Assembly: GCA_028867755.1 (NCBI GenBank)
Contig: JAGWFT010000001.1
Location: 644,727-708,726 of the forward strand
Direction of reading: 5' to 3'
Origin: Nitrososphaerota archaeon
GTDB taxonomy: Archaea > Thermoproteota > Nitrososphaeria > Nitrososphaerales > Nitrosopumilaceae
Length of the DNA: 64,000 bases
The notes beneath the pieces are model-generated. The model made no database searches. It was not told where the DNA came from and saw only the letters and a list, made by a program, of their open reading frames with translations. The position numbers were made by a program, and so were the translations under genes. Positions 45,447 through 58,172 of the stretch are shown here, piece by piece (position 1 is the stretch's first letter; each line of letters starts with the position of its first letter).

Positions 45447-45545
45447 TGCAGAGGGAGGGATTTGAACCCCCGAACCCCTAAAGGAAAGGATTTCCCATGC
45501 CAGATCTTGAGTCCTTCTCGGTTGGCCGGGCTTCGATACCTCTGC
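45447..45545 (-). tRNA. tRNA-Leu(CAA) with a 14-nt intron at 37/38 (45492-45505)
   Basis: AAGGA-CT-CAA-G[ATCTGGCATGGGAA]A-TCCTT; long variable arm; CTCA/TGGG central helix. Confidence 0.93.
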
Positions 45546-55756: not shown

Positions 55757-56398
55757 ATGCATAATGTTGTCAAGCTACTTGGAAAAGTAGCCCAGAGATA
55801 CTACCCAAGCAGAATGTTGTCATTTGAGCCTGCACATATCTTCAAGGTTCTCCAAGTCATACATGATAACGTAAAAGCAAGCAGATCTCTTTTAATAGAA
55901 GAAATAGGACTAGGAGAAGGCTCTGTCAAGACACTTGTAAAACATCTGAAGATGAACGAACTTATCATAACATCAAAGGCAGGTATGACACTGACAAACA
56001 AAGGAAAAACCTTGTTTTCAAAACTAGGCGAAGTTATATCTGCAGAAACCAACATTCACGAATGTTCAATCACTGTGGGCAAGTTTAATCACGCAATACT
56101 TGTCAAAGGACTTGCAAAAGACGTGGGAAGTGGAATTGAACAAAGAGACGCTGCAGTAAGAATAGGTGCGCTTGGAGCAACCACACTTGTATTTCGCGAT
56201 GACAAACTCTTCACGTCAGACAAAAGCCATGATATTCCAATTAAAGATCGAAAACTGACATCAATAATAATTGAAAAGCTAGGGCCTGAAAATGGAGACG
56301 TAGTAATTATTGCAAGTGCAGAAAATAAAAAAATTGCTGATCTGGCTGCAAAAAGGGCAGCATTAGAAACAATATCAAACCATGAAAAGCATTCTTGA
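55757..56398 (+). CDS. Winged-helix protein with DUF4443-type C-terminal domain
   Basis: SRSLLIEEIGLGEGSVKTL, GIEQRDAAVRIGALGATTL. Confidence 0.8.
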   Translation: MHNVVKLLGKVAQRYYPSRMLSFEPAHIFKVLQVIHDNVKASRSLLIEEIGLGEGSVKTLVKHLKMNELIITSKAGMTLTNKGKTLFSKLGEVISAETNIHECSITVGKFNHAILVKGLAKDVGSGIEQRDAAVRIGALGATTLVFRDDKLFTSDKSHDIPIKDRKLTSIIIEKLGPENGDVVIIASAENKKIADLAAKRAALETISNHEKHS

Positions 56399-56479
56399 TT
56401 TGTGTAACCACGATTCAATAGTGTCTAATATAGAAAATGGATTGCACAAAAGATTTAAAACATTGCACTATGTAATCAT

Positions 56480-56548
56480 GTATGGCTATGACATTAGCCT
56501 TGGAATGAGTTTCCTAAACCGCTCCTGAAAGGTGCTGATAATGTCTAC
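56480..56548 (+). promoter_or_regulatory. Fluoride (crcB) riboswitch aptamer
   Basis: GTA-T-GGCTA-TGACAT-TAGCC, extra hairpin GGAA/TTCC, AAACCGC, GAAA hairpin, GCTGATA-ATGTC-TAC; GACAT/ATGTC pseudoknot; upstream of crcB; TATA TTTAAAA at 56454. Confidence 0.88.
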
Positions 56549-56707
56549 CTAATGAAAATTAATAGGTAGATAAATGAACAAAAAAATCAAAAACAAAAAG
56601 GGAGCGGGAAAGTATCCTAGCGTATCCACTAATACTTGCAATGATCATCTTGATGATATTATGAATTTACAGATAGTAAATTTAAGTAACAATACGCCTA
56701 GGCAGAT

Positions 56708-57097
56708 ATGAAAATGATAGAGCTTGCATTTCTTGCTGCTGGTGGGCTGGGAGGAACTTTTCTAAGATATGGTATTACAAAGTCTCCCTTACTTCTTGGC
56801 GCATTGCCTCTAAATGTATTAATTGCAAATGTTGTAGGAAGTTTCATTCTTGGTATTTTTGCTGTACTTTCACAACAGTGGAATCTTGATGAAAAGTATA
56901 CGTTATTGATGGCAATTGGATTCTGTGGAGGATTGACTACAATGTCCTCATTTGCATTAGAGTCATCCAATCTGATTGATAATAAGCAATATGTCCTTGT
57001 AGCAGTAAATGTACTAACTAATGTTGGTTTGTCATTAGGAGCAATATTTTGTGGTAAATCTCTAGTAAGCGCAATTCTAGGTGCTGAATTTAAATGA
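56708..57097 (+). CDS. crcB: Fluoride channel Fluc/CrcB
   Basis: GGLGGTFLRY, LIANVVGSF, GFCGGLTTMSSF. Confidence 0.95.
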   Translation: MKMIELAFLAAGGLGGTFLRYGITKSPLLLGALPLNVLIANVVGSFILGIFAVLSQQWNLDEKYTLLMAIGFCGGLTTMSSFALESSNLIDNKQYVLVAVNVLTNVGLSLGAIFCGKSLVSAILGAEFK

Positions 57098-57408
57098 GAA
57101 CTATGAAGATGTGGTCGCTTGTAATTAGGATAAAGAAAAATGATAATGCCAAGGGAAAACGTGTGCATGTTCTAGTGCTAGACATACTAAAGAAAGGACA
57201 AATCTCTGGTGCTACTGTGTGGACAGGAGTTGAGGGATATGGCAAGAGAGGAAAGTCTAATGTCATGATAGAAGGTTTTTCAGTTAACATGCCTATGGTA
57301 ATTGAGGTAATTGATGAATTGTCAAAACTAGAAAAGATACTTCCAGAGGTAAAGGAGTTAATTGGTGATAATGGGCTGATTACATTACATGAAGTTGGAG
57401 TAGTATGA
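57094..57408 (+). CDS. DUF190 family protein
   Basis: GATVWTGVEGYG...PMVIEVID; typical crcB partner; ATGA overlap. Confidence 0.92.
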   Translation: MRTMKMWSLVIRIKKNDNAKGKRVHVLVLDILKKGQISGATVWTGVEGYGKRGKSNVMIEGFSVNMPMVIEVIDELSKLEKILPEVKELIGDNGLITLHEVGVV

Positions 57409-57491
57409 CTCAAGAAACAATCCAGATTTAGATTAAAGCTTGGAATGGTACTGTAAAAAGCATTTAAAACAGTTTAACTAACCTATAGACA

Positions 57492-58172
57492 TTGAATAGT
57501 TACCAGTGCCATCAGGTCCTAGGTCTACAGGATGGTGCATCGATGAAAGAGGTAAAGGCAGCATACCGAAACTTGGCACTCAAACATCATCCGGACAAGA
57601 ATAATACGGATCAGGATGGAAAGAAATTCAAGATAATATCTGAAGCTTATCAGACTCTCCGATCTGATTATAAGAAAAACATTGGTACAAGTTCAAACCA
57701 AGAAAATTATCAGGAAAAAAACTCAAACAAAAAATATGATTTTGGCTCAAAAAGACACTCATGGGGTGCAAGAGATTCTGACAAGACCCCGCAAGAAGAC
57801 TGGACTAGATATACAAAATATGCAGAAGGTGCTTACCAAAACTTTTGGAAACAATACGAGCAGGTATTCTGGGATTATTATGAAAAAGTAAAATCTGACA
57901 CAAAGACAGATTCAGAACCAATCCAAGTAGAGCAAGAAGTTCCAATATCCGTACGGGTTGACCCAGAAAGATGTATAGCTTGTTGCAGTTGTGAGACCAT
58001 AGCTCCAAAGGTGTTTCATGTGGAAAAAAATGTACGAGTAAACCCCAAATCCAAAGTCATAAACGAAGAAGGTGCAAAATCCCAGAAGATTCTTGATGCA
58101 GCACATACATGTCCTACAAAGGCAATCAGTGTAACGCACAAAGAAACACAACAAAGACTGTATCCATACTAA
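57492..58172 (+). CDS. DnaJ-ferredoxin fusion protein
   Basis: J-domain with HPD; CIACCSC...CPTKAI Fe-S motif. Confidence 0.92.
   Translation: MNSYQCHQVLGLQDGASMKEVKAAYRNLALKHHPDKNNTDQDGKKFKIISEAYQTLRSDYKKNIGTSSNQENYQEKNSNKKYDFGSKRHSWGARDSDKTPQEDWTRYTKYAEGAYQNFWKQYEQVFWDYYEKVKSDTKTDSEPIQVEQEVPISVRVDPERCIACCSCETIAPKVFHVEKNVRVNPKSKVINEEGAKSQKILDAAHTCPTKAISVTHKETQQRLYPY

What the first reader, a model, noticed from the sequence alone, without database searches (positions are those of the whole stretch)
56454..56570. Fluoride riboswitch in a thaumarchaeon, with an inserted extra hairpin
Seen: every element of the crcB aptamer is present in order. These are 5' GTA, P1 GGCTA/TAGCC (56484-88/56495-99) with loop TGACAT, AAACCGC (56516-22), a GAAA-capped P2, and GCTGATA-ATGTC-TAC (56534-48). 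ATGTC pairs with loop GACAT and TAC pairs with the 5' GTA (pseudoknot). A TATA box (TTTAAAA, 56454-60) sits about 25 nt upstream and crcB-DUF190 lies downstream. An additional hairpin GGAA-TGAGT-TTCC (56502-14) is inserted where the consensus has a short linker. Known: this is essentially the only riboswitch class well supported in Archaea. Inference: a functional variant in Nitrososphaeria; I do not know of one being characterised.
Basis: partly seen in the sequence, partly recalled or inferred. Interest (0 to 1): 0.85.

Follow-up and report, generated by a model that had tools for sequence, protein, structure and literature searches.

The report
Fluoride riboswitch before archaeal crcB
This is a genuine fluoride-sensing RNA switch in front of the fluoride-exporter gene of an ammonia-oxidising archaeon; it is an ordinary member of a known class, but its relatives show clearly that it acts by hiding a start site, here that of a short leader reading frame coupled to the exporter gene.

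Summary
crcB and DUF190 follow.

The same RNA occurs in 35 of 151 Nitrosopumilaceae genomes. P1, P2, the pseudoknot and the extra hairpin all covary there. The proposed 5' GTA/TAC pairing is not supported (26% paired, equal to shuffles).

The extra hairpin is not a new variant. It recurs in other archaeal families and in about a fifth of the Bacillota hits I sampled.

The more informative part lies 3' of the aptamer. A 9-bp hairpin (56543-51/56563-71) uses the pseudoknot's 3' strand and ends 2 nt before an ATG. This helix is kept in 64 distinct leaders (98% paired). No terminator is present. The switch is therefore most likely a translational ON switch.

In this genome the masked ATG opens a 45-codon leader frame whose stop overlaps the crcB start (ATGA). 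Five other lineages show the same 4-nt or 1-nt overlap with different leader lengths.

Earlier reports of this scan described the same kind of element on other DNA. Verdict: real, a new member of a known kind, moderate interest.

The parts
56447..56460 (+). Promoter: A-rich BRE-like stretch and TATA-like box (56454-60)
   Evidence: An A/T-rich box lies at -30 to -24 relative to the first base of P1 in about 40 of 59 related leaders, preceded by an A-rich stretch at -38 to -33. The spacing predicts a transcript start at about 56481-56485. This is inferred, not mapped.
56484..56548 (+). Fluoride aptamer core (Rfam match 56475-56554)
   Evidence: RF01734 at 38.0 bits, cut-off 34. 93.7% of cells pair and 10 of 17 pairs show changes on both sides across 64 distinct relatives; 0 of 500 shuffles reach this.
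56484..56499 (+). P1 (56484-88/56495-99); its loop carries the 5' pseudoknot strand (56490-94)
   Evidence: P1 is 100% paired, with two pairs changed on both sides. The pseudoknot is 99.7% paired, with two pairs changed on both sides.
56502..56514 (+). Extra hairpin in the P1-P2 linker (4 bp, 5-nt loop)
   Evidence: Present in all 64 leaders. Three of its 4 pairs change on both sides; the third pair shows six different standard pair types. RNAalifold predicts it independently. It also occurs in other archaeal families and in Bacillota.
56516..56535 (+). Conserved linker (56516-22) and P2 (56521-25/56531-35, one U-U mismatch)
   Evidence: Aligned to the model consensus. P2 is 87.9% paired, with three pairs changed on both sides.
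56534..56548 (+). 3' conserved block with the 3' pseudoknot strand (56541-45)
   Evidence: Nearly invariant in 59 leaders. It pairs with the P1 loop.
56543..56571 (+). Start-site masking hairpin (56543-51/56563-71, 9 bp with one G-U, 11-nt loop). Its 5' arm is the pseudoknot 3' strand and its 3' arm holds a 4-nt SD-like word (56564-67)
   Evidence: An 8-bp perfect inverted repeat. 98.4% paired in 64 leaders against 30-49% when slid, with two pairs changed on both sides. About -10 kcal/mol. Ends 0-7 nt before an ATG in 59 leaders.
56574..56711 (+). 45-codon leader ORF; its TGA (56709-11) overlaps the crcB ATG (56708-10)
   Evidence: ORF list. No Pfam family. The leader region through roughly the first 23 codons is 84% identical in DNA to the leader and 5' end of a 391-aa gene that follows the switch in a same-genus genome. 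The same overlap recurs in other lineages.
56600..56607 (+). Possible anti-P2 strand, complementary to 56519-26 (linker plus 5' strand of P2)
   Evidence: It forms in the minimum-energy fold. Duplex energy is -16.5 kcal/mol, z -4.4. An analogous element that tracks the P2 sequence occurs in about 14 of 22 related leaders and is absent in the rest.
56708..57097 (+). crcB (Fluc-type fluoride channel), 129 aa
   Evidence: PF02537, E 8.2e-23.
57094..57408 (+). DUF190 gene, 104 aa; its start overlaps the crcB stop by 4 nt
   Evidence: PF02641, E 3.6e-21. Coordinates.

Best explanation
A genuine fluoride riboswitch begins at, or within a few bases of, the 5' end of the crcB-DUF190 mRNA. The genome is a Nitrosopumilaceae one, probably Nitrosotalea-like. 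The aptamer has the standard P1, P2 and pseudoknot, plus a common optional hairpin in the P1-P2 linker. Without fluoride, the 3' pseudoknot strand pairs with a downstream strand instead. This forms a 9-bp hairpin that ends 2 nt before an AUG and buries the SD-like bases. In this genome a second helix between the P2 5' strand and codons 9-12 of the leader ORF may lock this state further. With fluoride, the pseudoknot holds the 5' arm, the start region opens and ribosomes initiate, so it is an ON switch acting on translation. Here the controlled AUG belongs to a 45-codon leader ORF, which is a remnant of a larger gene. The signal reaches crcB because the leader's stop overlaps the crcB start (ATGA), which allows termination-reinitiation. 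crcB passes it to DUF190 through a second ATGA overlap. Shown here: the aptamer's identity, the covariation, the conservation of the masking helix and the recurrent overlaps. Inferred: fluoride binding, the direction of the switch, the transcript start and the coupling.
For: Aptamer identity: the RF01734 hit is above the gathering score, it is the only copy in the genome, and crcB and DUF190 follow. There are 35 of 151 family genomes with a match. P1, P2, the pseudoknot and the extra hairpin covary. The leader is 87-89% identical to relatives whose crcB/DUF190 DNA is only 72-75% identical. Masking helix: 98.4% of cells pair in 64 leaders, against 30-49% when slid. It ends 0-7 nt before an ATG in 59 leaders. 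Three-way covariation: in two genomes the P1 loop, the 3' strand and the masking arm all change together. No terminator-like site was found in 56000-57800. With the aptamer locked, the mean unpaired probability of 56560-79 rises from 0.43 to 0.77. Coupling: there are ATGA overlaps in this genome, in six leaders of another genus (18 codons), in two further leaders (16 and 20 codons) and before a TFB paralogue (47 codons). There is a TGATG overlap before a 368-aa membrane protein with a cation/proton-antiporter-like N-terminus (no Pfam scan run; 13 codons). Such overlaps support termination-reinitiation in archaea (PMC6728339).
Against: The AUG itself is unpaired in both modelled states, and only the 9 bases upstream of it are masked. 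The SD-like word is only 4 nt, its spacing varies among relatives, and some relatives have a better SD-like word in the hairpin loop. The OFF fold is about 19 kcal/mol more stable than the secondary structure of the aptamer, so the ON state needs kinetic trapping or large tertiary and ligand energy. The masking helix has little variation, because its 5' arm is constrained by the aptamer, so its covariation is thin. The alignment was fitted to the structure. The 45-codon ORF is unique to this genome, and no near-identical strain was found. crcB has its own weak AGG-containing upstream region and might initiate independently.
Confidence: 0.7

Rival explanations
1. The aptamer is a real fluoride sensor, but control is at the RNA level: premature termination, or protection of the 5' end from 5'-3' decay by the folded pseudoknot. 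The hairpin next to the AUG would then be a stability or termination element, not a ribosome block.
For: The aptamer sits at the extreme 5' end of the predicted transcript, where a compact fold could affect decay. Many bacterial members of the class act through transcription terminators (PMC2864571).
Against: No terminator-like site and no T-run follows the hairpin; the sequence after it is A-rich. The conserved feature across 59 leaders is the hairpin's adjacency to an ATG. Recurrent 4-nt and 1-nt stop/start overlaps make sense only if translation carries the signal.
Confidence: 0.15
2. In this particular genome the switch is a decoupled relic. The deletion that left the 45-codon remnant separated the sensor from crcB, which is now translated from its own start regardless of fluoride.
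For: The leader ORF is a truncated copy of the 5' end of a larger gene and has no family. An AGG lies 6-8 nt before the crcB ATG. A predicted long-range helix that could make crcB depend on leader translation is not better than shuffles (z -1.13).
Against: The leader is better conserved than the coding genes. The remnant stays open for 45 codons and ends exactly in an ATGA overlap, as in five other lineages with different leader lengths. A strong complement to this genome's own P2 sequence lies inside the remnant.
Confidence: 0.1
3. The match is a chance resemblance, or an aptamer of the same fold that senses something other than fluoride.
For: The score is only 4 bits above the cut-off. P2 has a mismatch. 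Binding was not measured.
Against: The low score is due to the insertion penalty; relatives with the same architecture score up to 54 bits. Covariation exceeds all 500 shuffles. The conserved core positions are kept. The downstream genes are the canonical fluoride exporter pair.
Confidence: 0.03

Closest known systems
Fluoride riboswitch class (crcB RNA motif, Rfam RF01734; Weinberg et al. 2010, PMC2864571; fluoride sensing by Baker et al. 2012 as cited in PMC5473149)
   Same: Same P1, P2 and pseudoknot fold and the same conserved core. Same position in the 5' leader of crcB. Same expected ON logic, in which the folded aptamer prevents an inhibitory helix.
   Different: It carries a 13-nt hairpin in the P1-P2 linker. 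This is optional in the class: absent from the consensus but frequent in archaea, and present in about a fifth of the Bacillota hits sampled here. The inhibitory helix is a start-site mask rather than the intrinsic terminator typical of many bacterial members.
[quoted passage not shown] 2018). PMC8241225 calls it the only natural archaeal riboswitch tested experimentally and says it presumably regulates translation
   Same: An archaeal fluoride riboswitch in front of fluoride-export genes, with presumed translational control.
   Different: A different phylum and a mesophilic, probably acidophilic host. Here the evidence is comparative only. The controlled start belongs to a leader ORF coupled to crcB. 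I could not read the original paper, so the details of its platform were not compared.
Overlapping gene pairs coupled by termination-reinitiation (ATGA / TGATG; Huber et al. 2019, PMC6728339)
   Same: The leader ORF/crcB and crcB/DUF190 junctions are 4-nt ATGA overlaps. Relatives use ATGA or TGATG.
   Different: The upstream partner here is a short, poorly conserved leader frame whose only apparent role is to relay a riboswitch decision. It is not a subunit of a complex.

Membership tests
Fluoride riboswitch (RF01734) | Covariance-model score at or above the curated gathering score over the full model | tested here: met
   38.0 bits against 34, model positions 1-64, E 5.9e-7. Same result in the whole-genome search.
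Fluoride riboswitch (RF01734) | P1 and P2 helices maintained by compensatory changes | tested here: met
   P1 is 100% and P2 87.9% paired in 64 relatives. Five of 8 pairs change on both sides. RNAalifold predicts both.
Fluoride riboswitch (RF01734) | Pseudoknot between the P1 loop and the 3' tail | tested here: met
   99.7% paired, with two pairs changed on both sides. The sequence differs from the Rfam consensus on both strands in a complementary way.
Fluoride riboswitch (RF01734) | Conserved unpaired core nucleotides in the P1 loop, the linker and the 3' block | tested here: met
   Aligned to the consensus. Invariant or nearly invariant in 59 leaders.
Fluoride riboswitch (RF01734) | Location in the 5' leader of fluoride-resistance genes | tested here: met
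   crcB (PF02537) and DUF190 lie downstream. crcB directly follows the switch in most relatives.
Fluoride riboswitch (RF01734) | Selective binding of fluoride by the RNA | not testable with these tools
   Needs in-line probing, SHAPE or ITC with NaF against NaCl.
Fluoride riboswitch (RF01734) | Fluoride-dependent induction of the downstream genes in vivo | not testable with these tools
Translational ON riboswitch with start-site masking | An alternative helix that uses an aptamer strand and is mutually exclusive with the ligand-bound fold | tested here: met
   The 5' arm 56543-51 overlaps the pseudoknot 3' strand 56541-45. The helix is kept in 64 leaders. Three-way covariation occurs in two genomes.
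Translational ON riboswitch with start-site masking | The helix covers the ribosome-binding region of the regulated start codon | tested here: met
   The 3' arm ends 0-7 nt before an ATG in 59 leaders; here it ends 2 nt before. Unpaired probability of the region is 0.43 free and 0.77 with the aptamer locked. The start codon itself is not paired.
Translational ON riboswitch with start-site masking | Ligand-dependent ribosome binding or translation | not testable with these tools
   Needs toeprinting or a reporter assay.
Termination-reinitiation coupled gene pair | Stop and start codons overlap by 4 nt or 1 nt on one strand | tested here: met
   Leader stop 56709-11 and crcB start 56708-10. The same arrangement is found in five further lineages.
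Termination-reinitiation coupled gene pair | Downstream translation depends on upstream translation | not testable with these tools
   Needs a reporter with the leader start or the overlap mutated.

The most novel reading that the evidence does not exclude
The unit 'promoter + fluoride aptamer + masking hairpin + AUG + a few Lys/Asn-rich codons' behaves as a portable cassette in acid-soil ammonia oxidisers. It has been placed before different genes: crcB, secreted proteins of unknown family, a cupredoxin, TFB paralogues and a complex-I-like module. It is joined to them either fused in frame or as a short leader ORF that hands ribosomes on through an ATGA or TGATG overlap. This would be comparative evidence for riboswitch control relayed through a leader ORF by termination-reinitiation in Archaea, a mechanism I found described in no paper I could search.
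Probability: 0.5. Interest if true: 0.55.

Novelty: new member of a known kind. Interest (0 to 1): 0.35.

Why it matters
Riboswitch mechanisms in Archaea are almost unstudied. According to PMC8241225, one natural example has been tested. This locus and its 60-odd relatives give a clear, testable picture of how an archaeal riboswitch can act without a bacterial-type terminator: by masking a start site and, where needed, relaying the decision through a short overlapping leader frame.

The hosts appear to be Nitrosotalea-like acidophiles. At low pH fluoride enters cells as HF and accumulates (general knowledge, not tested here). A fluoride response may therefore matter for nitrification in acid soils. 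Cultured Nitrosotalea strains would allow a direct test.

As an annotation matter the element is routine, because a standard Rfam scan finds it.

Tried and rejected
- **5' GTA/3' TAC pairing:** 25.8% paired, the same as shuffles. Rejected.
- **Bacterial-type terminator:** none found in 56000-57800.
- **Extra hairpin as a lineage-specific novelty:** rejected after finding it in other Thermoproteota families and in Bacillota.
- **Long-range helix 56616-25/56692-702 that could hide the crcB start until the leader is translated:** present in the minimum-energy fold, but the region is not better than shuffles (z -1.13, 28 of 200). Left as unsupported.
- **Near-identical strains to test conservation of the 45-codon frame:** an 18-base word from the leader gave 18 metagenome contigs, none homologous to the leader.
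- **Exact-word scan of genome contigs with the P1 hairpin:** mostly chance hits in bacteria; 18 of the 80 loci screened first (L058-L137) were real and were kept, and a wider screen of all fetched loci added a few more.
- **Literature:** no paper links fluoride riboswitches with Nitrosopumilus, Nitrosotalea or ammonia-oxidising archaea. The McCown et al. supplements and Speed et al. 2018 are not held.
- **Not attempted:** protein structure and complex prediction, because the question concerns an RNA.

Full report
**What is there.** Rfam's Fluoride model RF01734 matches window 56475-56554 on the + strand over the whole model. The score is 38.0 bits against a gathering score of 34, with E 5.9e-7 for the window. 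The 14 bases that hold the extra hairpin are treated as an insertion between P1 and the conserved linker. It is the only match in the 1.64-Mb assembly. Downstream lie a 45-codon ORF with no family (56574-56711), crcB (56708-57097, PF02537, 8e-23) and a DUF190 gene (57094-57408, PF02641).

**Relatives.** The window's genome belongs to a family in which 35 of 151 sampled genomes have a match, spread over 12 of 27 genera. All matches are 71-81 nt long against a 64-position model. Named records that carry the most similar leaders are Nitrosotalea MAGs. Others are Nitrosotenuis, Nitrosarchaeum and unnamed Nitrosopumilaceae. The host is therefore a Nitrosopumilaceae archaeon, probably Nitrosotalea-like. 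crcB itself occurs in 62 of the same 151 genomes, so roughly half of the crcB carriers have a detectable switch. These two tallies include the unpublished genomes G092 and G077. Locus L005 (G092) is one of six leaders of one genus used below.

**Structure.**
- I collected 59 leaders, built a covariance model, and realigned 69 matches, of which 64 were distinct.
- For P1, the extra hairpin, P2 and the pseudoknot together, 93.7% of cells form standard pairs.
- Ten of 17 pairs change on both sides, and none of 500 shuffles reaches any of the five measures. Slid controls pair at 27-45%.
- In the extra hairpin, three of four pairs change on both sides.
- RNAalifold predicts P1, the extra hairpin, P2 and the downstream hairpin independently.
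- The alignment was fitted to the structure and the sequences are related, so these figures lean towards the model. The pattern is nonetheless unambiguous.

**The extra hairpin is not special to this lineage.** Within the class it appears in at least five further families, sometimes much longer, and some families lack it. Outside the class it appears in two other Thermoproteota families. Others have the plain 65-nt form or a longer P2. In 151 Bacillota genomes, about 15 of 69 matches are 73-77 nt long. Most of the 17 that I read carry a 3-5-bp hairpin at the same place. It is an optional element of the class that the Rfam model absorbs as an insertion.

**Promoter.** An A/T-rich box lies at -30 to -24 from the first base of P1 in about 40 of 59 leaders, preceded by an A-rich stretch. 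In archaea the TATA box is usually centred about 26-27 nt before the start (established knowledge). The transcript should therefore begin at about 56481-56485, and the aptamer sits at the very 5' end. This is inferred, not mapped.

**Expression platform.**
- The 3' pseudoknot strand is part of the 5' arm of a hairpin, 56543-51 with 56563-71. It has 9 bp and an 11-nt loop, of which 8 bp form a perfect inverted repeat.
- Its 3' arm ends 2 nt before the ATG at 56574 and contains a 4-nt SD-like word.
- The same helix is present in all 64 distinct family leaders. It is 98.4% paired, against 30-49% when slid, and two pairs change on both sides.
- In 59 leaders its 3' arm ends 0-7 nt before an ATG.
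- In two genomes the P1 loop, the 3' strand and the masking arm have all changed in step. This supports both of the mutually exclusive folds.
- No terminator-like site exists, and the sequence after the hairpin is A-rich.
- The hairpin is worth about -10 kcal/mol. Locking the aptamer raises the mean unpaired probability of 56560-79 from 0.43 to 0.77.

The most likely mechanism is therefore a translational ON switch. Fluoride-stabilised pseudoknot formation withholds the 5' arm and frees the start region.

**Leader ORF and coupling.** In most relatives the masked ATG is the crcB start. In same-genus genomes it is instead the start of a 342-392-aa protein. This is either of unknown family or a cupredoxin (PF00127), with crcB further downstream where the fetched locus reaches it. 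In this genome the leader through roughly the first 23 codons of the ORF is 84% identical in DNA to the corresponding region of such a gene, and the rest is unrelated. The 45-codon frame is thus a deletion remnant. It nevertheless stays open and its TGA overlaps the crcB ATG.

The same arrangement recurs with other leader lengths:

| Leader length | Lineage | Overlap | Downstream gene |
|---|---|---|---|
| 45 codons | this genome | ATGA | crcB |
| 18 codons | six leaders of another genus | ATGA | crcB |
| 16 and 20 codons | two further leaders | ATGA | crcB |
| 47 codons | a same-genus genome (G121) | ATGA | TFB paralogue |
| 13 codons | two genomes | TGATG | 368-aa membrane protein (antiporter-like N-terminus; no Pfam scan) |

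Overlaps of exactly these two kinds support termination-reinitiation in archaea and bacteria (PMC6728339). I infer that the switch gates the leader ORF and that terminating ribosomes restart on crcB. crcB and DUF190 are joined by a second ATGA.

**A possible second lock.** The strand 56519-26 (linker plus P2 5' strand) is complementary to 56600-07 inside the leader ORF. The duplex energy is -16.5 kcal/mol, z -4.4, with 2 of 200 shuffles as good, and it forms in the minimum-energy fold. With it, the OFF fold scores -33.3 kcal/mol against -13.9 for the aptamer's secondary structure. Related leaders have an analogous element 16-27 nt after the ATG that follows their own P2 sequence. It is seen in about 14 of 22. 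Cognate pairs average -9.7 kcal/mol against -7.5 for swapped pairs, and seven lack it. I rate this helix at about even odds. Several other Thermoproteota families have a clearer downstream complement to the same aptamer strand.

**Selection.** The leader (56484-56599) is 87-89% identical to relatives whose crcB/DUF190 DNA is only 72-75% identical.

**Literature and novelty.**
- The class was described as present in bacteria and archaea (PMC2864571).
- A survey counted one riboswitch in Thaumarchaeota without further detail (PMC5473149).
- I found no paper on fluoride riboswitches in ammonia-oxidising archaea.
- The only natural archaeal riboswitch tested experimentally is said to be that of Thermococcus kodakarensis (PMC8241225). 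I could not read that paper.
- Earlier reports of this scan describe the same kind of element on other DNA: an archaeal fluoride switch with the inserted hairpin and masking helix, a leader-ORF version, and a Nitrosotalea island with eight switches. My results agree with them and were obtained independently on this window and its relatives.

**Limits.** No close strain was found to test the 45-codon frame. A helix that might tie crcB initiation to leader translation is not significant. The direction of the switch and the coupling are inferences from anatomy and conservation.

Noticed in passing
L176:1-11501 and L177:1-11500 (G121 contig C37, 52500-75500): A same-genus genome has seven RF01734 matches within 19 kb. 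They precede two TFB paralogues (PF00382), a six-gene complex-I/hydrogenase-like membrane module (PF00146 subunit), a ferredoxin followed by DUF190, a DUF6659 protein, proteins of unknown family, and a 389-aa secreted protein followed by crcB-DUF190. Enolase-like and HAD-like ORFs, named from their N-terminal sequence only, lie inside the island.
   Followed up: partly
L024:1600-2775, L019:437-1480: In same-genus genomes the switch directly controls a 342-392-aa protein with an N-terminal hydrophobic segment. One type has no Pfam family and the other is a cupredoxin (PF00127, 2e-11). Where the fetched locus reaches far enough (G035, G094, G121), crcB follows that gene.
   Followed up: partly
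L031-L057 (other Thermoproteota families): Several other families carry a downstream strand complementary to the linker plus the P2 5' strand, up to 12 bp, about 30-50 nt after the aptamer. This is a different and apparently widespread anti-aptamer design.
   Followed up: no
window 45447-45545 (-): A 99-nt tRNA match (38.1 bits) has a 22-nt insertion in the anticodon loop region and a further 7-nt insertion, presumably introns.
   Followed up: no
window 57492-58172 (+): The gene after DUF190 fuses a DnaJ J-domain (PF00226) to a single-cluster 4Fe-4S ferredoxin domain (PF13370). An ORF with a J-domain-like N-terminal sequence also follows crcB in another genus (L025).
   Followed up: no
window 55757-56398 (+): A winged-helix plus DUF4443 protein (PF14544, 8.5e-29) ends 56 nt before the riboswitch TATA box. 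No link to the switch was examined.
   Followed up: no
family-wide: crcB is found in 62 of 151 sampled family genomes, but the riboswitch in only 35. Three genera have crcB in most genomes and no riboswitch match, or only one, so many crcB genes in this family are controlled differently or carry a diverged leader.
   Followed up: no
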